DNA from: a phage
Reading direction: 5' to 3' (one strand)
Assembly (NCBI GenBank): GCA_030395855.1
Contig: GCA_030395855.1_4325.1
DNA length: 44,883 nt
Shown here: positions 3,202 through 42,657 of the stretch, piece after piece
Layout of the letters: every line of letters begins with the position of its first letter
Numbering within the stretch: the stretch's first letter is position 1
The notes under the pieces: generated by a model
Told to the model about the DNA's origin: nothing
The model's input: only the letters and a program-made list of their open reading frames with translations
Databases searched by the model: none
Made by a program: the position numbers and the translations under genes

Positions 3202-4290
3202 ATGTGTAAAATCCGCTATGATAGTGTAAAGTTTAAAGCAACAATCGACGAGAATGGATTCTTGGTCGATACACCAGTAGTCGCACGTCTAGGTGTGCAA
3301 GTCTACTACATGGAGGACGGTCGCACGGTTCGAGAGTTTCGCCCAGCCGAGGAAGTCTTCAAGGATGAATCCCTCGCTAGTTACCAGGGTAAGCCAATGA
3401 CTCTTGATCATGTTTTCGTTAACTCAGAGAACGCTAAAGAGGTAGTGGTAGGTTCCGTTACTGGCAAAGCTGAGCCATTAGGTAGCTCAGTGGTTGCTCC
3501 GATTGTTGTTTACGATAACACAGCCATTCAGGAAGCTATGGCAGGTAACGCCAAGGAGTTATCCGTTGGCTACTCCGCAATTCTTGACGAAACTCCTGGC
3601 TGGGGCGACCCCATTACTGGCGAGTACGTCCTTAAATCTGATGGTGATCAATTCGATGCGCCAGAAGGATGGCAGGAGTTCGACGCAATTCAGCGTGACA
3701 TTAAAGTGAACCATCTCGCAATGGTATATCGCGGTCGCGCAGGTATTGCCAAATTGAATATGGACGGTGAGCAGGAAAACCCGTATACTACTGACGTTGA
3801 TATCAATAAAGAGGATAAACAGGAAATGACAGTTAAAATTAAACTGGACGGCGCGCAGGAATTTGAGGTCGCCCCGGAAATCGCTTCTCACATCGAAGCG
3901 CTGAACGCAAAGGCTGACACTGCAATCGCAGAGCGTGATGCACTGAAAGCCAAAGTAGATGCAATGCCTGCTGAAATCGAAGCTGCAGTTGCTAAAGCGA
4001 AAGCTGATGCTGATGCCTTGGCTGCTCTGGTCGCCGTTGCTGCTGAAGCTGGTGTTAAAGCTGATGGCCTGGATGCTAAAGGTATTAAAGTGGCCTACGT
4101 TAAAGAAGTCTCCGGCCTTGATGTTTCCGAGAAGTCTGACGCGTACATCGACGCAGCGTTCGACATTGCCAAAGAATCTGATAAAATGGCTGAAGTACGT
4201 AAAGCAACTACCGCTTCCGACAAATCTGACAGCGCCGATGAGCCTAAGAAATTAGACCCGCGTGCTCGTTTAGCTAAAATTAAGAAATAA
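3202..4290 (+). CDS. capsid scaffolding-like protein (Ala/Lys-rich coiled-coil C-terminus)
   Basis: RBS GAGGAG before ATG 3202; C-terminal low-complexity AEAKAD-type helical region; sits between head morphogenesis and capsid genes. Confidence 0.5.
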   Translation: MCKIRYDSVKFKATIDENGFLVDTPVVARLGVQVYYMEDGRTVREFRPAEEVFKDESLASYQGKPMTLDHVFVNSENAKEVVVGSVTGKAEPLGSSVVAPIVVYDNTAIQEAMAGNAKELSVGYSAILDETPGWGDPITGEYVLKSDGDQFDAPEGWQEFDAIQRDIKVNHLAMVYRGRAGIAKLNMDGEQENPYTTDVDINKEDKQEMTVKIKLDGAQEFEVAPEIASHIEALNAKADTAIAERDALKAKVDAMPAEIEAAVAKAKADADALAALVAVAAEAGVKADGLDAKGIKVAYVKEVSGLDVSEKSDAYIDAAFDIAKESDKMAEVRKATTASDKSDSADEPKKLDPRARLAKIKK

Positions 4291-19722: not shown

Positions 19723-19818
19723 TTGCATACGCGTAACCGATGTAACTCGATGTATACAATCTCATCCGCGGGAAATGATATACGATCTGTTACGCCAATT
19801 TACGCATTAGTTACATTA

Positions 19819-19882
19819 AAATATCTATATATATCAACCTTTTACTCTTATTATTATTATATATATATTACTGTGTATATCA
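19819..19882. repeat. AT-rich repeat block A (AATATCTATATATATCAACCTTTTACT + (TTA)n + TATATAT...TACTGTGTATA)
   Basis: Shares a 27-bp identical core and overall architecture with block B at 37846-37912; lies in a divergent intergenic region. Confidence 0.7.
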
Positions 19883-20183
19883 TGTAACTACTTCTATAGA
19901 GTGTTCCGGTTATAAATTTCTAACATGTACATTTATACAGTATTTAATCACACGCACACCAATGCACCCTCCGCTAGAAATGATATACACGATATACACG
20001 CTGGTTACATTGAGCTATAGCAGGGCTGAGGCTTTAAAAAACGTAACTAGTGGCAATACCTACAGGTAATTACAAGGATTCACGCGTAAACTTGAATCAG
20101 CGATTGGCAAAACCAATTGGACTGGTTACGGTGCCGAATATATAGTTAACCAATCGAAAGCAAACAACCAGAGAGATACAGAA

Positions 20184-25218: not shown

Positions 25219-25242
25219 ATAAAAAAACCTCCAGAAGGAGGT
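25219..25242 (-). terminator. intrinsic terminator (minus strand) after primase gene
   Basis: Hairpin acctcc-agaa-ggaggt; A7 on plus strand gives a T-run on the minus strand. Confidence 0.7.
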
Positions 25243-26168
25243 TAGTCTAGTAATTCACTTGCTTTGTATATTCTCTTTCTTATGCCTGACTTGAAAAAAT
25301 TACCATCATTTGGCATTACCACATCAAGATTGCGATCGTCAGCAACGGCGAGTAAATCAAAAGAGTGGCGAGCACAAGCGACGCGTAACTTGTAGTTTCT
25401 AAGCGCATAAGCAACCATTTCCATGTTGTAGCTGGAGTGGCAAACAAGCACGCAGCGGTTGCCAGCAGCAAGATGAACGCGAACACCATCAATCCAGTTA
25501 TCGACCAGATAAGCGTACTCACTATCCTTAAAGGCACCAACAACAGCAATAGACTGGCGAGTATAATCTTTTGCAGCATAACTAACATCTCCCTCTTCAT
25601 TGATAAACATTACGTTGCACATTTCTTCTGATATGCCGTCATTATAAGCCATAAAACACGGTATTGCGTGTATTAGTTCTCCTGATTTTGTTCTGCCAAC
25701 ATCAAAGCCAAACTCGCTATAGATACCCTCGTATGTACTGAGTGGAGTTGATTCTACTCTTTCCGTCCTTTCCATTATCTCTAAGCATCTTTCGTGGTCA
25801 ATCTGAGCGCCCATTTTGTATGGTGATGTTCTTGAAGCTCTTTTGTTTGCTTTTGATATAACCTCTACTGGAACTAGATTCAGCCAATCACCAAGCGTAT
25901 CTATTGTTTCACTATAACTCATTCCGGAACACTTCATTACCCAACCAACACCAGAATCATTTCCGCACTGGTTGCATATTGCTGCGCCATTTCCCTTTTC
26001 CTGACCTAACTCATCAGTGAAGCGAAACCTATCCCTGCCAAAGCAGTAAGGGCACGGACCATGTTTCTTGCTGAGATTCTCCTTTGTCCATCCAAGGTGC
26101 GATGAGTAGAATTCGCCCCACATTCCCTTCATTTTTGCTATCACTTCGTTCTTATCATGGTGACTCAT
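25242..26168 (-). CDS. DNA primase (zinc-finger type)
   Basis: N-terminal CPYCFGRDRFRF...CNQCG zinc-binding motif; RBS GGAGGT before ATG (MSHHDKN); conserved promoter element upstream. Confidence 0.65.
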   Translation of the reverse strand: MSHHDKNEVIAKMKGMWGEFYSSHLGWTKENLSKKHGPCPYCFGRDRFRFTDELGQEKGNGAAICNQCGNDSGVGWVMKCSGMSYSETIDTLGDWLNLVPVEVISKANKRASRTSPYKMGAQIDHERCLEIMERTERVESTPLSTYEGIYSEFGFDVGRTKSGELIHAIPCFMAYNDGISEEMCNVMFINEEGDVSYAAKDYTRQSIAVVGAFKDSEYAYLVDNWIDGVRVHLAAGNRCVLVCHSSYNMEMVAYALRNYKLRVACARHSFDLLAVADDRNLDVVMPNDGNFFKSGIRKRIYKASELLD

Positions 26169-26193
26169 AGTTACCTCCATAAACAATAAAGGC

Positions 26194-26236
26194 ACTATAC
26201 ACAATGTATAGCGCCACTGTTTATCAATTCGTGCTA
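26194..26236 (-). promoter_or_regulatory. conserved promoter/operator-like element copy (minus strand) driving primase
   Basis: Minus strand reads tagcacgaattgata, 22-nt spacer, TATAGT. Confidence 0.55.
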
Positions 26237-26817: not shown

Positions 26818-28812
26818 ATGTTGCCTATCGAGAAGCTGGTTGCAAACTTCGATAAAGAAAGAATTAAACAGATTCAGAAAGATTACCAGTTTGGCGAGAT
26901 AACCCCTTACGAGTTCCAGTGCGTTACATTTGATGCTATCGGAAAGGCTATTGGAAAGTACGAGGCACCATTTATCGCAGACCTTTCAGTATCTGCTGGT
27001 AAGACAATCATTCTCGCCATGATTGGAAAGCGCATGGAGCAATTGGGGTTGCCTTACATGGTTCTTTCTCGCCAGTCAGAGATAATAAGCCAGAACTCAG
27101 AAGAACTTCGTAATTTCGGCATCCGCAACAGCGTCTACTGCGCCGGACTTAACGTTAAATCAGTTTACTACCCAACCATAGTTGCTAGTGAGGGCACGGC
27201 AGCCAACGGCCTATTTAAGGGGCTTGGTGACTATGTTCCGGCAGTTATTGCAATCGATGAGTGTCATATGGTTGATCACATGGATATCGTTGAGGCTGAA
27301 GAGAACGAAGAAACATTTGAGCAAATGAGTACAAAGAAAGGCGAGATGGTTTTTAAGGATGGCGTTAATACTGGATTGCTTGGTACTGGTCGTGCGCAGT
27401 ACACGCTAATCATTACTGAGATGAAGCGTCGTTGTCGTGAGAAGTACGGGCGGGAGCTTCGTATATTCGGCCTAACTGGTAGCCCTTATCGAAACAATGA
27501 CCATATCGTCGTTAGCAATCCAAACATCCGTGGATTCTGGCGCAAAACAGTGATTCAGGTGCCAACCAATTACCTTGTTGATTTGGGTTTCGTGGTACCT
27601 ACTGTTTATGGCGAGGTTGGCGATTTAGGTTATGACCTTAGCGAGTTTGTTCCAGACGGTAGTGATGGCGTGAAAGACTTTAGCAAGAGAGAAATGGATG
27701 CAATGGCAGCGAAGATTCACGACAACCAATCCATGACTCAAAAGATAATGGGTTTTGTTGTAAAAATACTAGAGACTCGTAACGCCGCATTGGTAACGTG
27801 TGCTGGTAAACTTCACTGCGAAGAAGCTGCTGCAGCGCTACCAGATGGATACCCTTATGCCATCATCACCGACTCCACGGGAGAGAGGAGGCGCAGAGAG
27901 ATTCTGGCTGATTGCCAGACAGGGAAGTACAAAATAATATTCCAGATTGGTTGTCTAACCACAGGCGTAAACCAACCGCTGTGGGATACTAGCGTCATAC
28001 TACGCAAGATTGGCAGCCTAACCTTAATGATTCAGCTTCTTGGTCGTGGAATGCGAAAACTAAAAAAGGCGCACATAGATGCTGGATTTAAGAAAGATGA
28101 TCACCTTGTTTTAGACTTCGCTGGCGCGCTTGATGATATGGCGGAACTTTACTTTGACCCAATAATTGAGGAGATACAGGCCGAGAAGTTTAAATCTTCA
28201 AGAAAAGGTGGTGATGAGGTTCGCCAGTGTCCACAATGTGGATATGAGAACTCGCCATTTGCTAGACGCTGTAGCAATAAGATTAATGGCGTTAGATGCG
28301 ATCACTTTTTCCAGTTCACAACATGTGATGATATTACCGACCAACAAACAAAGGCGGTAATCAAGAAAGGTTGTGGAGCTAAAAATGACATAGCAGCAAA
28401 AGTTTGTCGTGAATGCGGAGAAATGCTTAAAGACCCAAACGCTAACCTGACTGGAAAGATGTATCGTCGCGGAGACTATTTGCGGGTTTATGATTTTCAA
28501 GTTGGTTTAACCAAGAATCAAACTGGCATTGTAGTTAAGTACAATATCATGGCCCACAACGGAGAAAGATTTAACGCTTGGGAGTTCTTTAATCCAGAAT
28601 CTGACCATAGGGTTTGTAGTGTGCTTTGGAAAAACTTTTGCCTTGATCACATTGAAAATCGCGCTGAAGCAGCACGAATTGGCAGACTGAAGAATGCCAG
28701 AATGATTATGACTAACGCAGATAAGTTTCGTGCGCCAGTCCAGGTGACACACCGCAAGAATAGCAAAGGAAAGGATATAATAGCTTTTAAGAATTTTGGA
28801 GAATTGTTATGA
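26818..28812 (+). CDS. superfamily-2 DNA helicase with C-terminal zinc ribbons
   Basis: Walker A SAGKT and DExH box IDECH; two C-terminal CxxC...CxxC clusters. Confidence 0.75.
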   Translation: MLPIEKLVANFDKERIKQIQKDYQFGEITPYEFQCVTFDAIGKAIGKYEAPFIADLSVSAGKTIILAMIGKRMEQLGLPYMVLSRQSEIISQNSEELRNFGIRNSVYCAGLNVKSVYYPTIVASEGTAANGLFKGLGDYVPAVIAIDECHMVDHMDIVEAEENEETFEQMSTKKGEMVFKDGVNTGLLGTGRAQYTLIITEMKRRCREKYGRELRIFGLTGSPYRNNDHIVVSNPNIRGFWRKTVIQVPTNYLVDLGFVVPTVYGEVGDLGYDLSEFVPDGSDGVKDFSKREMDAMAAKIHDNQSMTQKIMGFVVKILETRNAALVTCAGKLHCEEAAAALPDGYPYAIITDSTGERRRREILADCQTGKYKIIFQIGCLTTGVNQPLWDTSVILRKIGSLTLMIQLLGRGMRKLKKAHIDAGFKKDDHLVLDFAGALDDMAELYFDPIIEEIQAEKFKSSRKGGDEVRQCPQCGYENSPFARRCSNKINGVRCDHFFQFTTCDDITDQQTKAVIKKGCGAKNDIAAKVCRECGEMLKDPNANLTGKMYRRGDYLRVYDFQVGLTKNQTGIVVKYNIMAHNGERFNAWEFFNPESDHRVCSVLWKNFCLDHIENRAEAARIGRLKNARMIMTNADKFRAPVQVTHRKNSKGKDIIAFKNFGELL

Positions 28813-29228
28813 ACATTACAGACAAAGTTGATTACATTGAGTTTTACTCTGGACCTGTTAAGTCGTGTCCGAAAGAGGATGACGAACAAATCTTTTGCTC
28901 TGATTGGGTTAAGTATAACTATCCAGATATGGTATTTTTCCACTGCGTAAATGAGGGTAAGAAAACCATTGGTCAAGCAAGGAAGGACCAGGCTAAAGGA
29001 TTGCTCAAAGGGGTCTCGGACTGTTTATTCCTGATACCTGAATCGCTTAGAGGCAGTTATCCATTTGGAGCCATAGAGCTAAAGAGGGCAGGAAAAACTC
29101 AGGCTAGCCCGGTCAGCGATGAGCAGAGGTCCTTCCTTAAAAGCGTAAGGGAATCAGGAGGTTTCGCCGCCGTGGCCTACGGACGCGAGGGCTTTCTAGC
29201 AGCATTCAAAGAAATGATTTCAAAATAG
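28809..29228 (+). CDS. VRR-NUC domain nuclease
   Basis: DCLFL...GAIELK...SDEQ segment resembling the VRR-NUC PD-(D/E)XK core; ATGA overlap with helicase stop. Confidence 0.6.
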   Translation: MNITDKVDYIEFYSGPVKSCPKEDDEQIFCSDWVKYNYPDMVFFHCVNEGKKTIGQARKDQAKGLLKGVSDCLFLIPESLRGSYPFGAIELKRAGKTQASPVSDEQRSFLKSVRESGGFAAVAYGREGFLAAFKEMISK

Positions 29229-31631: not shown

Positions 31632-32105
31632 ATGATTTACGTATTTGATATCGATGGAACTATAGCTAATAATGAGCATAGAAGTCACCTCTTGCCATCC
31701 AGCGACCTTCACTTGACTTCAAGTTGGAAGGATTACAATAAAGCCTGTTCTGGAGACTCACCAATAATCCCAATGATAAAAATGATGAATGCTTTAGCTG
31801 AGTCATCTCAAGTTTACATAATGACCTCAAGAAGTGATGAAGTTGAATTGAGAACCCTTGAGTGGCTTCAGGATAATGAGATTGAGTGTGATTCGATATA
31901 CATGAGAAGTAGACATGACAACCGAAAAGATTACAAAATAAAAGAGCAATGGCTTAATGAAATCAGTGGTGGCGATAAAGGCAATGTGGTTATTTTTGAA
32001 GATAACCCAAAAGTAATTAAGCACCTAAGAAGTCGCGGATACACAGTTATGGCTGTATGTGAATATGAAGAACTACCTAAAGATTGCGAATCTCACGGAG
32101 AATGA
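31632..32105 (+). CDS. HAD-superfamily phosphatase (polynucleotide 3-phosphatase-like)
   Basis: N-terminal FDIDGT motif (HAD motif I); 157 aa. Confidence 0.6.
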   Translation: MIYVFDIDGTIANNEHRSHLLPSSDLHLTSSWKDYNKACSGDSPIIPMIKMMNALAESSQVYIMTSRSDEVELRTLEWLQDNEIECDSIYMRSRHDNRKDYKIKEQWLNEISGGDKGNVVIFEDNPKVIKHLRSRGYTVMAVCEYEELPKDCESHGE

Positions 32106-32107
32106 AA

Positions 32108-32662
32108 ATGACTAAATTATTTATCCTTAACGGACCGGCTGGAGTTGGCAAGGACACTATCGCAGATATTATGCTCGAGTTGGGTGTTGTTGATGGGAAA
32201 GTTTCATTCAAGTCACCAATGTTCGATGTAGCCAGGGGGATGCTATCAAAGGGTGAATTTGATTGGTTTATTGAGAACTACAACAACCGAGACGAGAAAG
32301 AAAAGCATCAAGAGATACTTGGCGGTAAAAGCATTCGAGAATTCATGATTTGGATTAGCGAGTCTGTAATGAAGCCAGTCTTTGGTGATGATGTCTTCGG
32401 TAAAAGGCTCGCCCAGTCACTTGGTGATGGTTGCTACATTTGCGCTGACGGTGGATTTACTAGCGAGATTAAGACACTGGTCGACGCTGGTGTTGAGGTC
32501 ACGTTAATTAGATTGCATAGGGAAGGGTACACATTTGATGGCGATAGTCGCTCATACATTCACGGGGTGTGCGCAAGAGAAATTGATGTTCGTGTTGTTG
32601 ATTGTGATATTAATGAAACATCAGCATTGGTAAGGCACGTAATAAATAGCACGAATTTCTAA
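32108..32662 (+). CDS. P-loop kinase, dNMP-kinase-like (paralog 1)
   Basis: Walker A GPAGVGKDT near N-terminus; about 45 percent identical by eye to the ORF at 39543..40160. Confidence 0.6.
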   Translation: MTKLFILNGPAGVGKDTIADIMLELGVVDGKVSFKSPMFDVARGMLSKGEFDWFIENYNNRDEKEKHQEILGGKSIREFMIWISESVMKPVFGDDVFGKRLAQSLGDGCYICADGGFTSEIKTLVDAGVEVTLIRLHREGYTFDGDSRSYIHGVCAREIDVRVVDCDINETSALVRHVINSTNF

Positions 32663-33619: not shown

Positions 33620-34105
33620 ATGAAGCAGAAGCTGCTAATTAGCGCGGCTACGGCTTCGGCAATATACATCGCAGCGCCGATTATTGAGCTCGTTGAGGGT
33701 GTGGAGAACAAACCTTACATTGACATTGCCGGAATACCTACAGTCTGCGCGGGTATCACTGGTCCTGACGTAGTTTGGGGTAAGACTTACAGCAACAGGG
33801 AGTGCCGGAACCTGCTTGAGAATCGCATCCAGATTCATGGAAAGCATGTTCAGGATGCAGTTACCTACCCAATTACACCGCAGACAAGGGCAGCGTTAAT
33901 CAGCTTTAGCTATAACGTTGGTGGTCATGCCATGAAGAATTCAACGGCCGTTAAGTTAATCAACCAGGGTAAAGTGGAGCAAGGTTGTAAGGCTTTGGGT
34001 CTTTGGAATAAAGCTACCGTTAATGGTAAGAAGGTTGTGGTTAAGGGTTTGGTAAACCGCAGGAATGAGGAGATTAAGTTATGCTTAAGAGGATTGCAGC
34101 GTTAG
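33620..34105 (+). CDS. endolysin, lysozyme-like with N-terminal signal-anchor (SAR-type)
   Basis: N-terminal hydrophobic Ala/Ile-rich segment followed by E...D...T catalytic-like region typical of phage lysozymes. Confidence 0.65.
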   Translation: MKQKLLISAATASAIYIAAPIIELVEGVENKPYIDIAGIPTVCAGITGPDVVWGKTYSNRECRNLLENRIQIHGKHVQDAVTYPITPQTRAALISFSYNVGGHAMKNSTAVKLINQGKVEQGCKALGLWNKATVNGKKVVVKGLVNRRNEEIKLCLRGLQR

Positions 34106-34470
34106 TAATGTGCGTAGCTTTATCTGGATGCTCAGCGACATCCGCACTGACCGGATTAATTGGCAGTAAGCCAGAGATTAGCGCCCAGGCTGGTTCCGAG
34201 AACAATAAGGTTGGTGTTGGGTTAACGAACAAGGTTGACTCCAGTAGCTCCAGTGAAGCCACGGTTAAAGATTCTAAGGTTGGGTCACTGGATAGCTCTA
34301 GCGGGAAAAAGACTGCTGACAACTCGATTAAGGCCTCCACAATCACTGCCGAAAAGATTGAAATTACCAATAACGAATCATCAGCGCTTCCGTGGGTTGG
34401 AACAGGAGCTATGGGTCTGCTGGTTTTAATTCTCATGGCATTAATCTTAAGGCGTAAAAAAGCCTCCTAA
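34081..34470 (+). CDS. unimolecular spanin (N-terminal lipoprotein signal + C-terminal transmembrane helix)
   Basis: Lipobox LSGC at residues 14-17 and C-terminal hydrophobic helix followed by RRKKAS; last gene of the lysis cassette. Confidence 0.6.
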   Translation: MLKRIAALVMCVALSGCSATSALTGLIGSKPEISAQAGSENNKVGVGLTNKVDSSSSSEATVKDSKVGSLDSSSGKKTADNSIKASTITAEKIEITNNESSALPWVGTGAMGLLVLILMALILRRKKAS

Positions 34471-34486
34471 TGGAGGCTATATTTTT
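34455..34486. terminator. bidirectional intrinsic terminator
   Basis: Hairpin agcctcc-taa-tggaggct flanked by A5 and a T-run; between convergent operons. Confidence 0.7.
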
Positions 34487-34820
34487 AGCTAAATAACTCG
34501 TCGTCAGTCATTGTTCCTATATTCATCATCTCTTTTATGTACTTGCTCTGATACCCGCTAAGTGCCTCGAAGTTAAACTCAAATGGCCTTTTCAAACTCC
34601 CCTTGCTAACAAACTCACCGCACTTACCATCAATGTAACCTGCACTCAACATCTTCGCGCAAAACTCCTTTGATGCAGCACTGCAAAACTCTCTATGCGG
34701 CAACCCGGCCGCCTTGCTGAACCTCTCAGAGTCCTTATGTTGGTAGATGAATCGCGCCAAATGCTGGCGCGTGAAATAGGAATACGACTCGCAGAACTTA
34801 AATATATCCAGCAGGAACAT
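34485..34820 (-). CDS. hypothetical protein (111 aa)
   Basis: Minus-strand ORF, RBS GGGGTG, downstream of the DUF3987-like gene in the same operon. Confidence 0.5.
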   Translation of the reverse strand: MFLLDIFKFCESYSYFTRQHLARFIYQHKDSERFSKAAGLPHREFCSAASKEFCAKMLSAGYIDGKCGEFVSKGSLKRPFEFNFEALSGYQSKYIKEMMNIGTMTDDELFS

Positions 34821-34823
34821 TCA

Positions 34824-36407
34824 TCACCCCAATAGTCTTGGATTAATGTAAACTTTATCACCAATCAGGCATGTATAGTTTTTCTCATCAAGCATTGGCA
34901 GTAAGTGATCTTTAATCTTCGTCATTACTCCCGCCTGGGCCTCGAACGGCTTAACCTTACGCGCTGCCTCGTACAGAGAACGAATACCCACTACACCTTT
35001 GCCGTTCCTTCCTTGCTTAATCAGAATATCAATCAGCTTATTCATCTCTGCATTGTCGCCAGCGTGACCAGCGGCGTTGGCAGATGACAAATAAGTCTTA
35101 CTCAGTTCCTGGAACATAATCACAGCCTCTTGCATGGTATCGAGTTCAATCTCTCTGGACTTCTGAGGGCTACCGCCATTTGGGTTGAACCAGTTACGAA
35201 CAGTGTGAAGGACAGCCGCAATCCTGATGGCTTGCTTATCGAACTTACCCAGAGCGCCGCGCAACATTGTGTGTGAATACTTCCCGCCGTCAGCAAGGTG
35301 AGGTTCCATTTCCTGACGCGCGCGGTTGAGATATTTCATTGCTGAATTACTAACTGTCAACTTAACTTCCTGCTCATTCATTATCTCGTGAACTAAACGG
35401 AAGTAATCAGCCTTCAACCCGGCATCAATTGGTTCATAAGTCGATTCGCCATTTTCATCAACGAATACACGCTCGCCCAGTAATGACTTTTCACGTACAA
35501 GCAGGAAACGCTCAGATACACCGATACCACGCGCGCCAGCGTTCATGATAGCGTTGATTGTCTCATCCTGCGCAATTACAGAGATGCAACCCATAGCGAC
35601 GAAACTCATGTTGTTTTCTGCGTTCGCACGCGCAATGGACACGTTACCAGCATCCCACGCCTTCAGAACAAGCTCGCTGTTAGTTTTCTTAGAGCCGTCA
35701 CCATAGGTCATTCCAAGAAGCGAGTTCACGCTCGTTGCTTCGTCAGAAATTACCGCAAAGTTTCCCTGGCGGTTGTTTATTCTCGCAAGGCCCTCTGGTG
35801 TGGTGTCTGATACGGGGAAAACGATATCGCAAAGTTTCTCGAGCTTTTCCTCAAGCTCATCCTTCTCCTCGAAAAGAGAAGCCATCTCTGACGGGGATTT
35901 TTCCTGCTTCATCTCTTTGGATAATGCAGATAGTTTAGCCATGATCTTTTTGCGCTCACGCTTTCGGACTTCATTCAGTCGCTCAGTCTCAGCAATCATT
36001 GGAGCAATAGATAGCGAGTTAATGGCTGACTTACCAGTCGATGGAGGCTGGCTTGTTACTACGTAAAGCGAGGTTGGTTGTTGAGTTCCATTATATTCCA
36101 CCGTAAAACGGCCTAGCATCGCAGCGGAAATACACCCCAGGAAGTGCATGTAAGCTGAAGACTCTGGAAACTGAACCGAACGGGCGATGTTAGATGAAAG
36201 TTTACCAACAACATCAACATCATTTCCGAGTGAGATTACGGGATACTTGTCGTTAGCTGCATCAATCTCGACCGGAGCCTTCCAGAATGATTGAGACTGG
36301 CGATAGCCATTAGCATTAATAGCGACTCGCAGGGGTGGGAGGTTGTCTGCGGCAGCAATTGCCATAACCTGTTCAACAGATAGCTTATCTTCGTTGAAAT
36401 CAAACAT
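34824..36407 (-). CDS. putative replication NTPase (DUF3987-like, helicase/primase-associated)
   Basis: 527 aa; Walker-A-like PPSTGKSA; RBS GGAGAG; family assignment from memory of motif pattern, not verified. Confidence 0.45.
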   Translation of the reverse strand: MFDFNEDKLSVEQVMAIAAADNLPPLRVAINANGYRQSQSFWKAPVEIDAANDKYPVISLGNDVDVVGKLSSNIARSVQFPESSAYMHFLGCISAAMLGRFTVEYNGTQQPTSLYVVTSQPPSTGKSAINSLSIAPMIAETERLNEVRKRERKKIMAKLSALSKEMKQEKSPSEMASLFEEKDELEEKLEKLCDIVFPVSDTTPEGLARINNRQGNFAVISDEATSVNSLLGMTYGDGSKKTNSELVLKAWDAGNVSIARANAENNMSFVAMGCISVIAQDETINAIMNAGARGIGVSERFLLVREKSLLGERVFVDENGESTYEPIDAGLKADYFRLVHEIMNEQEVKLTVSNSAMKYLNRARQEMEPHLADGGKYSHTMLRGALGKFDKQAIRIAAVLHTVRNWFNPNGGSPQKSREIELDTMQEAVIMFQELSKTYLSSANAAGHAGDNAEMNKLIDILIKQGRNGKGVVGIRSLYEAARKVKPFEAQAGVMTKIKDHLLPMLDEKNYTCLIGDKVYINPRLLG

Positions 36408-36481
36408 TACTTCTCTCCGTATTGTTTCTAAGCGGCCATTATAACAACGACCGCTTATAATTCATTATCAATTTGTGCTTA

Positions 36482-36835
36482 TTATCGGTATTGCGCCTCA
36501 AAGCGATAGTCGCCACAAACTGTAACAAAGCCAACATCTTCGTCACGATATAGCTGCCATGCGCTACCCTCTTTATCGTAAATGTATCCAGCACGCTGCC
36601 CAAGTCCAGCGTGGAGATCTACTTGATATCGCCTCCCTTCAGTGAAGTACTTGCGAATGGATGAGCGATGATTAACCTTTGTGCAGTAGATGGTCTTGGT
36701 CTTGATGTACTTACCACGCTCTTCCAGGTTAATCCATTTTCCATCTTTCTTAATCTGCTCTACACCATCTTTAACGCGAGCTTTGTATAGCACGTTTTCT
36801 TTGCTGATCCAGTTTTTAGTAATCGTAGTAGTCAT
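36482..36835 (-). CDS. hypothetical protein (117 aa)
   Basis: Minus-strand ORF directly downstream of a conserved element. Confidence 0.5.
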   Translation of the reverse strand: MTTTITKNWISKENVLYKARVKDGVEQIKKDGKWINLEERGKYIKTKTIYCTKVNHRSSIRKYFTEGRRYQVDLHAGLGQRAGYIYDKEGSAWQLYRDEDVGFVTVCGDYRFEAQYR

Positions 36836-36871
36836 TTTGATTGCCTTTGCATGTTTCGTTTCGATGAGATG

Positions 36872-36914
36872 AATATACAGGAAAAGCCCCGAAGGGCCTT
36901 AGCAATTCGTGCTA
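36872..36914 (-). promoter_or_regulatory. conserved promoter/operator-like element copy (minus strand)
   Basis: Minus strand reads tagcacgaattgcta, 22-nt spacer containing a gccc-cgaa-gggc hairpin, TATATT, leader CATCGAAACGAA. Confidence 0.55.
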
Positions 36915-37063
36915 TTACGTGCCTGTTCTATCGCCTTGAGCATAATTTCGTGACTTTCTAGCAAGTCCTCGCGAAACCAATCCCCGCATGGCCAACCCTT
37001 ACCGCTGTAAGCTGCAATGGTGCAAAGATCGTAATAGTTGATATCTGATGGCAATAGCATCAT
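36899..37063 (-). CDS. small hypothetical protein (54 aa)
   Basis: Not in ORF track; RBS GAGGTG; ATGA coupling to upstream gene; its stop TAA lies inside the conserved palindrome. Confidence 0.35.
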   Translation of the reverse strand: MMLLPSDINYYDLCTIAAYSGKGWPCGDWFREDLLESHEIMLKAIEQARNSTNC

Positions 37064-37299
37064 TTCACCTCGTCAAAAGTTGCAATCCCAGGGATGAGCA
37101 TTCCAACCTTCCAGCCTGCAATGGCAATCCACCCAGAATCGTGCTTGTGCGGTCGCTCAGCGCCATTAATCAACCATTCGTTCTGGATTACCTTGCCGTT
37201 AATGATTAGTGGCTCAGCGTCGTATACAGAGCCTTTTACGAATGGTGTTAATACTTTCTTATCGGTACTGGTGATGCAATTGGTGCAGTGAATTTTCAT
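37060..37299 (-). CDS. hypothetical protein (79 aa)
   Basis: RBS GAGGA before ATG at 37299. Confidence 0.5.
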   Translation of the reverse strand: MKIHCTNCITSTDKKVLTPFVKGSVYDAEPLIINGKVIQNEWLINGAERPHKHDSGWIAIAGWKVGMLIPGIATFDEVK

Positions 37300-37302
37300 A
37301 TC

Positions 37303-37488
37303 TCAATCCTCAAATGAATGGTAAACATTCGACGCAGCCAAGTCCATCGCAGCACGGAATTCATCCTCTGACTGGAATTGCCTGGCAATGTCAATATCAA
37401 TCTTGCCGAGCAAAACAAGTGCAGTGTAAATCTCATTCAACCCAATCAGTGTGCATTCGTGACGTAATTCATCTTTATCAATCTTCAT
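37303..37488 (-). CDS. hypothetical protein (61 aa), first gene of leftward operon
   Basis: RBS GAGGG before ATG at 37488; conserved element upstream. Confidence 0.5.
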   Translation of the reverse strand: MKIDKDELRHECTLIGLNEIYTALVLLGKIDIDIARQFQSEDEFRAAMDLAASNVYHSFED

Positions 37489-37515
37489 ATCTATACCCTC
37501 GTTGTTGATGAGCTA

Positions 37516-37559
37516 ACTATATCCTCACTAACTCCTAATGTCTTTAGCAAAAAGTGCTA
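37516..37559 (-). promoter_or_regulatory. conserved promoter/operator-like element copy (minus strand)
   Basis: Minus strand reads tagcactttttgcta, 23-nt spacer, TATAGT. Confidence 0.55.
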
Positions 37560-37845
37560 TTCGTTAGATTTATGGATTGATGCAGATATTGCAATGATTC
37601 ATATGATTATTGCACATACAGCAATATTGCTTCCGATGCAATGATGTTTTTGATTGTTGCGAAAAGTGAAATGAAGTGGGGAGTGAGTGAATGAAAGATT
37701 GATGGACTACCATACAAGTTGATTTTTACCAATCTATGGGAGCCTCACGGATATACGCGTATCCTCCGTATACTCATTGTCGTCACAAAAGTTAGTGACC
37801 ACTAACCTACGTTTTTACGCGATATATACACACGATATACAATAT

Positions 37846-37912
37846 AATATCTATATATATCAACCTTTTACTTTATTATTATTATTATTATTATATATAT
37901 GTATACTGTGTA
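37846..37912. repeat. AT-rich repeat block B (same core as block A, with longer (TTA)n tract)
   Basis: AATATCTATATATATCAACCTTTTACT + (TTA)5-6 + TATATAT + TACTGTGTATA; second divergent intergenic region. Confidence 0.7.
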
Positions 37913-38189
37913 TACCGGCAATTGGTGAGATTATTGATATGTTCCGCGCAGATATTCTGACACCTGTCAGAAATGGATGGCATTGTAGGAATAAAAGGCA
38001 CATATATAGGGAATGGCTTCAAAAATCTGTACACATCGGATACGGCACATTTACAACCAGCAATGGAGGGGCCTCTGGAGGCAAAAAGCGTATCCATGAT
38101 AAAATAGACGAAAATATACATTGACCGACACGTAAATAGATGGCAATATAGCAGTCACTGAAACGAAGTAAAACAAACGAGGTATCAAC

Positions 38190-39542: not shown

Positions 39543-40160
39543 ATGGCTAAAATCATCATTCTCAACGGTCCGGCTTCGGTTGGCAAAGACACTATCGGTA
39601 ACGCGCTTGCTAAAGATTACAATTGCATCCCGACGAGCTTTAAGATTCCTATGTTTGAGATCGCAGCGTCAATCCTGGGCGCTCGGGCGTTCAGCAAATT
39701 CATCACCGCTTATGATGATCGAGATCAGAAAGAGATGCCTCATGATTTTCTCGGTGGGAAAACCTGCCGTGAGTTCATGATCTGGATTAGCGAGTCGGTG
39801 GTCAAGCCGCTATTTGGCAATCAGCAGTTCGGTAAGCTGACGAGCGAGCGCATCCAGCTTTGTGACGAGGGATTTAGCTTTGTTTGCACTGATGGCGGTT
39901 TTCCTGATGAGGTTATCCGTCTGGTGGAAGACGGCCACTATGTTACCGTTGTGCGCCTATTTATGGATGGCAAGACCTTCGATGGAGATAGTCGTGATTA
40001 TATCCGCATCAAGGAATCGCATTTCCCTGATTATAAGCAATATAACGAGCATGACGTGCATCTGTTGAATGGTGATATTGACGGCGGCGTCATGGCAGTG
40101 GTTCGCGCCTGCGGTATCCGTCCTGCAATCGACGAGTGGGCCGACAATATTCCCTGGTAA
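39543..40160 (+). CDS. P-loop kinase, dNMP-kinase-like (paralog 2)
   Basis: Walker A GPASVGKDT; shared FMIWISESV and TFDGDSR blocks with the ORF at 32108..32662. Confidence 0.6.
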   Translation: MAKIIILNGPASVGKDTIGNALAKDYNCIPTSFKIPMFEIAASILGARAFSKFITAYDDRDQKEMPHDFLGGKTCREFMIWISESVVKPLFGNQQFGKLTSERIQLCDEGFSFVCTDGGFPDEVIRLVEDGHYVTVVRLFMDGKTFDGDSRDYIRIKESHFPDYKQYNEHDVHLLNGDIDGGVMAVVRACGIRPAIDEWADNIPW

Positions 40161-42579: not shown

Positions 42580-42657
42580 GATCTGCTAGCTCAACAGGAA
42601 AGAAGCAACGACCTTCTAAGTCGTAGGTTACTGGTTCGAATCCAGTGCGGATCGCCA
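42580..42657 (+). tRNA. tRNA-Arg (anticodon UCU), with encoded CCA
   Basis: Folded by eye: acceptor stem GATCTGC/GCGGATC (one G-U), anticodon stem ACGAC/GTCGT, loop CTTCTAA (anticodon TCT at 42615-42617), T arm ACTGG-TTCGAAT-CCAGT, discriminator G, CCA. Confidence 0.8.

What the first reader, a model, noticed from the sequence alone, without database searches (positions are those of the whole stretch)
34485..37559. Leftward operon with DUF3987-like NTPase and small proteins, separate from the primase-helicase region
A minus-strand operon (two conserved elements at 37545 and 36900) encodes three small proteins, a 117-aa protein, a 527-aa protein with a deviant Walker A (PPSTGKSA) and a 111-aa protein. 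The large protein resembles replication-associated NTPases, yet primase (25242..26168) and helicase (26818..28812) are encoded elsewhere. This suggests a second replication or initiation module, perhaps acting at the nearby AT-rich block B.
Basis: inference. Interest (0 to 1): 0.45.

Follow-up and report, generated by a model that had tools for sequence, protein, structure and literature searches.

The report
T1-like phage MCM-like replicative helicase block
This is the conserved leftward gene block of a T1-like coliphage that carries its DUF3987 (MCM-like AAA+) DNA helicase, most likely the phage's own fork helicase. It is an ordinary, already catalogued feature, not a second replication system.

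Summary
Six minus-strand ORFs (61, 79, 54, 117, 527 and 111 aa) lie at the stated coordinates. The 527-aa protein has the PPSTGKSA P-loop and is a clear DUF3987 protein (Pfam 1.5e-41; PHROG 'DNA helicase' 6e-258).

The 'other' helicase (26818-28812) is an SF2 RadD-like enzyme followed by a VRR-NUC nuclease, so it looks like a repair or recombination enzyme. The primase is a stand-alone primase half. In more distant phages the DUF3987 gene sits directly beside the primase gene. The block is therefore most likely the phage's main helicase unit, not a second module.

The two 'conserved elements' are copies of a known genome-wide 17-21-nt repeat that belongs to a promoter cassette. A third, weaker copy precedes the helicase gene. 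The origin idea for AT-rich block B remains untested. Verdict: already known; low interest.

The parts
37544..37560 (-). Repeat copy 1 (ATAGCACTTTTTGCTAA), the upstream part of a promoter cassette. A weak -35 (AAGACA) follows, then 17 nt, then the -10-like TATAGT at 37516-37521.
   Evidence: The same repeat is described for phage TLS in PMC11447400.
37303..37488 (-). 61-aa small protein of unknown function (phrog_9053).
   Evidence: Found in close relatives only, not detected in T1.
37060..37299 (-). 79-aa small protein of unknown function (phrog_4448).
36899..37063 (-). 54-aa small protein of unknown function (phrog_4548). Its start overlaps the stop of the 79-aa gene (ATGA).
36872..36915 (-). 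Repeat copy 2 (36899-36915, overlapping the stop codon of the 54-aa gene), then a GGCCC-TTCG-GGGCT hairpin with a T-run (about 36880-36898), then the -10-like TATATT (36872-36877). This is a compact terminator/promoter junction.
   Evidence: and the sequence.
36482..36835 (-). 117-aa basic protein of unknown function (phrog_2684). It is conserved just upstream of the helicase gene across Drexlerviridae (T1 ST7, KP36_070).
36438..36481 (-). Repeat copy 3 (36465-36481, 2 mismatches), then 21 nt, then TATAAT (36438-36443). This is the helicase gene's own promoter-like cassette.
34824..36407 (-). 527-aa DUF3987 / MCM-like AAA+ helicase, the orthologue of T1 gp9 (ST9). Walker A is 120-127 (QPPSTGKS) and Walker B is 219-223 (ISDE). 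Candidate arginine finger is R300 in SERF. Candidate sensor-2 is R383. The C-terminal region looks like a winged helix.
34485..34820 (-). 111-aa protein (phrog_2794, T1 ST10). Its ATG lies 3 nt after the helicase stop codon. It is present in 835 phage records and has an invariant DDELF motif. The model has a winged-helix-like topology with no significant structural match.
34461..34478 (.). Bidirectional intrinsic terminator between the 111-aa gene and the convergent lysis (spanin) gene.
25242..26204 (-). Stand-alone DNA primase (Zn_Ribbon_Prim; phrog_510 N-terminal half only). It is the likely partner of the helicase.
26818..29228 (+). SF2 RadD/YejH-like helicase (26818-28812) and an overlapping VRR-NUC nuclease (28809-29228). 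This is a repair or recombination pair, not the fork helicase.
37813..37912 (.). Block B core, the most AT-rich 100 nt of the genome (18% GC). It contains a rightward promoter-like element duplicated in block A (19820-19860).

Best explanation
The region is the conserved leftward early gene block of a T1-like (Drexlerviridae, Braunvirinae) phage. Its large gene encodes a DUF3987-family AAA+ ATPase with an MCM-like core and a C-terminal winged helix.

Inferred mechanism: the protein assembles into a ring, most likely a hexamer. It hydrolyses ATP at subunit interfaces, using Walker A K126, Walker B D222/E223 and the trans arginine R300. It acts as the phage's own replication-fork helicase. It would work with the separately encoded stand-alone primase (25242-26204), the phage SSB (22115-22540) and the host DNA polymerase III, because the genome encodes no polymerase.

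The 111-aa gene is translationally coupled to the helicase gene, and the 117-aa gene lies just upstream. These two are conserved companions and probable accessory factors (loading, DNA binding or replisome coupling); this is inference. The three small upstream proteins are variable early proteins of unknown role.

Transcription runs leftward from three tandem copies of the phage's standard promoter cassette and ends at the terminator at 34461-34478.

Shown here: gene content, family membership, fold, motif conservation, synteny and promoter-like architecture. Inferred: helicase activity, hexamer formation, role at the fork, and partner functions.
For: Family and fold:
- Pfam DUF3987, 143 bits; PHROG 2373 'DNA helicase', 6e-258.
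- The AF2 model is confident (pLDDT 89.5, pTM 0.87).
- All of the top 50 Foldseek PDB hits are MCM-containing replication complexes, best E 4.5e-6.
- Invariant Walker A and B residues, E299-R300 (the arginine within an 'SERF' motif) and R383 across 27 homologues.

Links to primases:
- Relatives found by profile search (6235 at E<=1e-3) include fusions to a DnaG zinc ribbon, the DnaB N-terminal domain, a BT4734-type AEP primase domain and the NrS-1 HBD.
- In Vi II-E1, SB28 and pYD38-A the gene abuts the annotated primase gene, which in turn abuts the SF2 helicase gene; in pYD38-A the run continues through a small gene at the VRR-NUC position to exonuclease VIII. BUCT610 has the same gene order, with an unannotated gene in the primase position.
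- The window's primase is only the N-terminal half of a primase-helicase profile.

Context:
- The other helicase is RadD-like and paired with VRR-NUC.
- No polymerase-sized unexplained ORF is present. The TLS paper states that T1 and TLS lack a polymerase gene (PMC11447400).
- The gene is core to the group: 925 phage records, orthologue of T1 ST9.

Literature:
- DUF3987 was predicted to be an SF6 replicative helicase, and the N4 dns protein is essential for replication (PMC4889955).
- A PriCT-DUF3987 protein is an ATP-dependent 5'-3' helicase that binds its primase-polymerase (PMC11724360).
Against: - There is no experimental evidence for this protein or for any Drexlerviridae orthologue.
- In this genome the gene lies about 8.6 kb from the primase gene, with lysis and nucleotide-metabolism genes between them.
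- No sequence-level match to Pfam MCM or to any solved structure.
- How an MCM-like helicase would couple to the bacterial Pol III holoenzyme is unknown.
- A role for host DnaB at the fork is not excluded.
- The functions proposed for the 111-aa and 117-aa proteins rest only on conserved adjacency. The 111-aa model has no significant structural match.
Confidence: 0.7

Rival explanations
1. Initiator-helicase reading. The DUF3987 protein, possibly with the 117-aa and 111-aa proteins, recognises a phage origin in the adjacent AT-rich divergent region (block B) through its winged-helix domain. It melts the origin and loads itself there, as P4 alpha or SaPI Rep do. This refines the best explanation and does not exclude it.
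For: - Block B contains the most AT-rich 100 nt of the genome (18% GC against a mean of 44.8%) and lies just upstream of the block.
- In every related phage examined, the helicase unit starts at a divergent intergenic region several hundred bp long.
- C-terminal winged-helix matches include Orc2 and Cdc6 winged-helix domains.
- No origin has been identified in T1-like phages (PMC11447400).
Against: - Block B has only 2 GATATAC copies. Genome-wide enrichment is weak: 11 found against 4.6 expected, and 1 of 100 shuffles reached 11.
- No regular iteron array was found, and no DnaA box lies in blocks A or B (the only match in the window is at 3203).
- The AT-rich core is a promoter-like element (TTTACT-16-TATTAT). 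A 41-nt stretch of it is duplicated at 97.6% identity in block A, in front of the recombination genes, which fits an early promoter.
- The position corresponds to the annotated genome end / terminal repeat start of T1, so packaging is an alternative role for the block.
- GC skew follows transcription direction only.
Confidence: 0.2
2. Accessory helicase reading. The fork helicase is host DnaB or the SF2 protein. The DUF3987 protein serves recombination-dependent replication, fork restart or concatemer processing.
For: - The gene is separated from the primase gene in Drexlerviridae.
- The phage has a rich recombination set: RecE-like exonuclease, Erf, VRR-NUC and the SF2 helicase.
- The published TLS annotation treats the primase and the SF2 helicase as the replication pair (PMC11447400).
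Against: - SF2 RadD-like helicases are repair enzymes, not ring-shaped fork helicases (established knowledge).
- DUF3987 domains take the place of DnaB or MCM cores in primase fusions, and one is fused to the DnaB N-terminal domain (PMC5862659).
- No homologue of a DnaB-loader (lambda P or DnaC type) appears in the annotation of the collinear relative.
Confidence: 0.12
3. Non-replicative ATPase reading. The protein is a MoxR/RavA-like chaperone, an anti-defence factor or a remnant of a mobile element carried by the phage.
For: - The neighbouring small proteins are of the variable early type.
- DUF3987 proteins are common in integrative elements (PMC6174562, PMC9964261).
Against: - MCM subunits outrank RavA and BchI by 3-5 Z units.
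- The gene is a conserved core gene of 925 phage records, syntenic with primase in distant phages.
- No PADLOC hit.
- Fusions are to primase or DnaB domains only.
Confidence: 0.03

Closest known systems
Phage T1 gp9 (ST9) and its Drexlerviridae orthologues (for example the helicase gene beside Rtp rtp66, and H1N77_gp49 of vB_EcoS-12210I)
   Same: Orthologous. Identity is 56% to T1 and 97.5-98.5% to Veterinaerplatzvirus, IME253 and 'A110b'. The position is the same: a leftward block between the lysis cassette and the divergent early region. The flanking genes are the same (ST7 = 117 aa, ST10 = 111 aa).
   Different: T1 has an HNH endonuclease gene inserted between ST7 and ST9, and a different set of small upstream genes. 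Some close relatives carry an extra 140-aa mini-paralogue that this window lacks.
AgaPH, the PriCT-DUF3987 helicase of a pAgo-associated mobile element (PMC11724360)
   Same: Same Pfam family (DUF3987) with Walker A and B motifs. AgaPH is an oligomeric, ATP/dATP-dependent 5'-3' helicase that binds its primase-polymerase.
   Different: The phage protein has no PriCT domain; Pfam finds only DUF3987. Its N-terminus is a short helical domain. Its presumed partner is a zinc-ribbon primase encoded 8.6 kb away, not an adjacent AEP PrimPol.
MCM helicases (SF6, archaea and eukaryotes)
   Different: No Pfam MCM match and only 10-18% identity. No N-terminal OB-fold/zinc domain; the N-terminus is helical. 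The one DUF3987 helicase tested runs 5'-3', whereas MCM runs 3'-5'.
Phage N4 dns protein; P4 alpha; SaPI Rep/Pri-Rep (primase-helicase-initiator proteins of phages and satellites)
   Different: Those proteins fuse primase and helicase (and origin binding) in one chain. Here primase and helicase are separate genes, and origin binding is not shown.

Membership tests
DUF3987 (PF13148) helicase family | Significant match to the family profile over its full length | tested here: met
   143.2 bits against a cut-off of 27; residues 81-430 cover profile positions 3-349 of 364. PHROG 2373, 6e-258.
DUF3987 (PF13148) helicase family | Conserved Walker A (GK[ST]) and Walker B (hhhhDE) motifs | tested here: met
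   QPPSTGKS at 120-127, with G125 and K126 invariant. VISDE at 218-223, with S221 and E223 invariant, in 27 homologues down to 35% identity.
DUF3987 (PF13148) helicase family | [quoted passage not shown] | tested here: met
DUF3987 (PF13148) helicase family | Fusion to, or adjacency with, a primase gene | tested here: inconclusive
   Not adjacent in this window (about 8.6 kb apart). Adjacent to an annotated primase gene in Vi II-E1, SB28 and pYD38-A. Family members are fused to a DnaG zinc ribbon, an AEP domain or DnaB_N.
DUF3987 (PF13148) helicase family | ATP-dependent DNA unwinding and oligomeric ring | not testable with these tools
   Shown only for AgaPH (PMC11724360). Needs biochemistry.
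MCM family proper (PF00493) | Sequence match to the MCM profile and the N-terminal OB-fold/zinc domain | tested here: not met
   No Pfam MCM hit at E<=0.1. No PDB sequence hit. The N-terminal 100 residues are helical. Only the AAA+ core resembles MCM.
DnaB / SF4 RecA-fold replicative helicases | RecA-type core (DnaB_C) and DnaB N-terminal domain | tested here: not met
   No DnaB Pfam hit. Structural neighbours are AAA+ proteins (MCM, RavA, BchI), not RecA-fold proteins.
Phage replication origin (block B) | AT-rich unwinding element plus an array of initiator-binding repeats next to the initiator gene | tested here: inconclusive
   The AT-rich element is present (18% GC, the lowest in the genome). 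There are only 2 GATATAC copies and no regular iteron array, and no DnaA box in the block. The AT-rich core also looks like a duplicated promoter.
Single operon | One promoter, co-directional genes, one terminator | tested here: inconclusive
   The genes are co-directional and tightly packed and end at one terminator. But there are three promoter-like cassettes and one internal hairpin. There are no transcript data.

The most novel reading that the evidence does not exclude
The conserved trio (117-aa protein, DUF3987 helicase, 111-aa protein) together with the adjacent AT-rich divergent region could be the so-far unidentified origin and initiator module of T1-like phages. In this reading an MCM-like AAA+ helicase loads itself at an AT-rich unwinding element. 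It is then coupled to the bacterial Pol III replisome and the stand-alone primase through the small partner proteins, for example through the invariant DDELF motif of the 111-aa protein. That would be an archaeal/eukaryotic-type helicase engine working inside a bacterial replisome.
Probability: 0.15. Interest if true: 0.55.

Novelty: already known. Interest (0 to 1): 0.17.

Why it matters
The practical value is a correction of annotation. In T1-like phages the protein usually named as the replication helicase is a RadD-like SF2 enzyme. The DUF3987 protein is often left as 'hypothetical', yet it is the better candidate for the fork helicase.

T1-like phages are common therapy candidates and fermentation contaminants. 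They replicate with the host polymerase, and no origin is known for them. A clear assignment of helicase, primase and candidate accessory proteins gives concrete targets for replication studies. It also raises a testable question: how does an MCM-like helicase cooperate with bacterial Pol III?

Nothing in this window departs from what is already seen in hundreds of sequenced relatives.

Tried and rejected
- Sequence searches of the 527-aa protein and of its 27-sequence profile against PDB chains gave only chance-level hits.
- NCBIfam gave no hit for any of the six proteins, and PADLOC gave none.
- The primase had no PDB sequence hit.
- I tested whether the primase part of a DnaG-zinc-ribbon-DUF3987 fusion (P0152) is homologous to the window's primase, which would have made it a strict Rosetta-stone link. 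It is not (BLASTP E 0.7). The fusion evidence therefore holds at the level of function class only.
- The 111-aa model is confident (pLDDT 90.3), but Foldseek found no significant match (best E 1.8). Winged-helix proteins dominate the list, which is only suggestive.
- HMMs of the 117-aa and 111-aa families did not find the small flanking genes of Vi II-E1, pYD38-A or BUCT610. The 111-aa family was found in SB28.
- GC skew tracks gene orientation and gives no origin signal.
- Rfam found nothing in the region.
- Literature searches for T1 genetics (DNA-negative genes 1 and 2) and for host dnaB/dnaG dependence returned nothing usable. No supplements were held for PMC4889955.
- I considered and rejected the SF4/DnaB-like reading suggested by the 'PPSTGKS' resemblance to DnaB's P-loop, because the fold is AAA+.
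Full report
**What the window is.** A megablast of 34000-38000 finds 129 phage records, the best at about 89-90% identity. These are Escherichia phages of Drexlerviridae / Braunvirinae (Veterinaerplatzvirus, BEK1-1, BEK6) and a record labelled Campylobacter phage A110b. The gene order of the whole window matches the 44.2-kb genome of vB_EcoS-12210I and that of phage T1. The window is therefore a complete T1-like phage genome. No ORF of polymerase size is left unexplained. The TLS reannotation states that T1 and TLS have no DNA polymerase gene (PMC11447400).

**Checking the observation.** All six minus-strand ORFs are present at the stated coordinates. Each matches a recurrent PHROG family, with E from 1e-25 to 6e-258. 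The 527-aa protein hits Pfam DUF3987 at 143 bits against a cut-off of 27. Its P-loop QPPSTGKS (residues 120-127) has Q120, P121, P122, G125 and K126 invariant among 27 homologues down to 35% identity. The 'conserved elements at 37545 and 36900' are perfect minus-strand copies of ATAGCACNNNTTGNTAA. This motif occurs 20 times in the window against 1.5 expected by chance.

**Anatomy of the block.**
- Aligning all copies of the repeat shows a fixed architecture: the repeat, then about 21-23 nt that often contain a weak -35 such as AAGACA, then a -10-like TATAGT/TATAAT/TATGAT, then a conserved leader (…CCATCGAAACGA…), a Shine-Dalgarno sequence and ATG.
- Three such cassettes lie in the finding. One is before the 61-aa gene (repeat 37544-37560, -10 at 37516-37521; also found by the promoter scan). 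One is before the 117-aa gene (repeat 36899-36915, overlapping the stop codon of the 54-aa gene, with a GGCCC-TTCG-GGGCT hairpin and T-run between repeat and -10). A weaker one is before the helicase gene (repeat 36465-36481, -10 TATAAT).
- The 61-, 79- and 54-aa genes are tightly packed, with an ATGA overlap between the last two.
- The 111-aa gene starts 3 nt after the helicase stop codon.
- A bidirectional intrinsic terminator at 34461-34478 closes the block against the convergent lysis genes.
- The block is thus three tandem transcription units, not one simple operon. There are no transcript data.

**What the 527-aa protein is.**
- It has orthologues in 925 phage records, with 56% identity to T1 ST9 and 97.5-98.5% to the nearest relatives. 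RefSeq and PHROG-based annotations often call it 'DNA helicase'.
- Sequence searches against solved structures give nothing.
- An AlphaFold2 model built on the 27-sequence alignment is confident (mean pLDDT 89.5, pTM 0.87).
- All of the top 50 Foldseek matches in the PDB are MCM-containing replication complexes, best E 4.5e-6.
- Invariant residues fit an AAA+ site: Walker A K126, Walker B in ISDE (219-223), E299-R300 (the arginine within an 'SERF' motif that resembles the MCM arginine-finger motif, from my own knowledge), and R383.
- This reproduces independently the published assignment of DUF3987 to SF6, MCM-like helicases with a C-terminal winged helix (PMC4889955). A PriCT-DUF3987 protein has since been shown to be an oligomeric, ATP/dATP-dependent 5'-3' helicase that binds its primase-polymerase (PMC11724360).

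**Is it a second module or the main helicase?** Five lines of evidence point to the main helicase.
1. The other 'helicase' (26818-28812) is an SF2 protein. It has Helicase_C plus zinc ribbons, and its best NCBIfam match is the repair helicase RadD/YejH (4.8e-52, below the equivalog cut-off). Its gene overlaps a VRR-NUC nuclease gene. That is a repair or recombination arrangement.
2. The primase matches only positions 5-319 of the 667-position PHROG 510 profile. It is the primase half of a primase-helicase family without the helicase half.
3. A profile search of 1.84 billion representative proteins finds 6235 relatives. Among the long ones are fusions of DUF3987 to a DnaG-type zinc ribbon, to the DnaB N-terminal domain, to a BT4734-type AEP primase domain and to the NrS-1 polymerase HBD. 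The DUF3987 core thus sits where a fork-helicase core normally sits.
4. In more distant phages (Salmonella Vi II-E1 and SB28, Vibrio pYD38-A) the DUF3987 gene lies directly next to the annotated primase gene and convergent with it. The SF2 helicase gene follows (after an HNH endonuclease gene), and in pYD38-A a small gene at the VRR-NUC position and exonuclease VIII come next. Klebsiella BUCT610 has the same order, but the gene in the primase position is annotated only as hypothetical. Drexlerviridae have the same parts with the lysis cassette and other genes inserted between them.
5. The collinear relative's annotation lists no lambda-P or DnaC-type loader that would recruit host DnaB.

I conclude, at about 0.7 confidence, that this protein is the phage's fork helicase. 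It would work with the stand-alone primase, the phage SSB (22115-22540) and host Pol III. Activity, ring formation and polarity are inferred, not shown.

**The small proteins.**
- The 111-aa protein (T1 ST10) is found in 835 phage records, against 925 for the helicase. It always lies directly downstream of the helicase gene in T1, KP36 and the non-Drexlerviridae phage SB28.
- Its alignment shows an invariant DDELF motif near the C-terminus.
- Its model is confident (pLDDT 90.3) and has a helix-helix-helix-hairpin topology. No structural match is significant (best E 1.8), although winged-helix proteins dominate the list.
- The 117-aa protein (T1 ST7) is conserved just upstream of the helicase gene in Drexlerviridae and has no recognisable domain.
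- Both are probable accessory factors of the helicase, on the basis of conserved adjacency only.
- The 61-, 79- and 54-aa proteins are found in close relatives but not in T1 and have no known function.

**The origin idea.**
- Block B (37489-38189) contains the most AT-rich 100 nt of the genome (37813-37912, 18% GC). Block A (19806-19905, 19% GC) is second, and the next lowest window is 27%.
- GATATAC occurs only twice in block B and four times in block A. Its genome-wide enrichment is modest: 11 found against 4.6 expected, and 1 of 100 shuffles reached 11.
- No iteron-like array was found and no DnaA box lies in either block.
- The AT-rich cores of blocks A and B share a 41-nt stretch at 97.6% identity. 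It reads as a rightward sigma-70-like promoter (TTTACT-16-TATTAT). One copy faces the recombination genes and the other faces the rightward early genes.
- The same element aligns to T1 positions 192-274, just inside the annotated genome end and terminal repeat. The block may therefore also hold the packaging start site.
- An origin in block B is possible (I give about 0.2) but nothing here tests it.

**Verdict.** The finding is real and the NTPase call is correct. However, the feature is the well-conserved T1 gp9-type DUF3987 helicase block, already present and mostly already named in hundreds of phage genomes, and its family has a published predicted and demonstrated helicase function. Novelty: already known. 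Interest: low (0.17). Open points of some interest are the roles of the 111-aa and 117-aa partners, the location of the origin, and how an MCM-like helicase works with bacterial Pol III.

Noticed in passing
Whole window; for example 686, 8539, 21348, 25178, 26221(-), 29225, 31558, 32646, 36465(-), 36899(-), 37544(-), 38826, 40161, 40683, 41760: The 17-nt repeat ATAGCACnnnTTGcTAA has a palindromic core (TAGCA-N5-TGCTA). In most of the 20 matches it is followed at a fixed 21-23 nt by a -10-like TATAGT and a conserved leader (CCATCGAAACGA). It often starts right at the stop codon of the preceding gene, and sometimes a terminator hairpin is squeezed between repeat and -10 (36899, 40161). This looks like a genome-wide promoter cassette with a possible factor-binding site. 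The TLS paper lists the repeat as unexplained.
   Followed up: partly
19820-19860 and 37846-37885: The two divergent intergenic regions (blocks A and B) share a 41-nt AT-rich stretch at 97.6% identity. They are by far the two most AT-rich spots of the genome (18-19% GC). A related stretch lies at T1 192-274, near the T1 genome end.
   Followed up: partly
L002 (NC_049813.1) 28161-28583; absent from the window: Close relatives (Veterinaerplatzvirus, IME253, Sf12, phiKP26) encode a 140-aa 'mini-paralogue'. It is made of the helicase's N-terminal 73 residues joined to its C-terminal 70 residues (about 50% identity each) and has no ATPase core. It lies on the other side of the divergent region (phrog_7327). 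This window and 'A110b' lack it.
   Followed up: partly
34485-34820 (111-aa protein), residues 106-110: An invariant acidic-aromatic motif DDELF lies near the C-terminus. It sits one residue before the C-terminus in this phage and is followed by about 20 more residues in most homologues. It is reminiscent of acidic SSB-type tails. Its significance is unknown.
   Followed up: no
Whole window: GATC is strongly under-represented (59 sites against about 175 expected from sequence length). T1 and TLS carry more than 200 Dam-methylated GATC sites. No methyltransferase is annotated in the collinear relative.
   Followed up: no
32084-32662 and 39543-40160: Two paralogous proteins resembling deoxynucleoside monophosphate kinase (both hit phrog_139 and phrog_31701) are encoded in different parts of the genome.
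   Followed up: no
(MG065688.1 and other 'Campylobacter phage' records): The best nucleotide match is labelled Campylobacter phage A110b. In the protein search, 21 'Campylobacter phage' records carry this T1-like helicase. These records look like coliphage-type Drexlerviridae with a doubtful host label.
   Followed up: no
42580-42657 (+): A tRNA-Arg (anticodon TCT) gene, also present in the relatives.
   Followed up: yes
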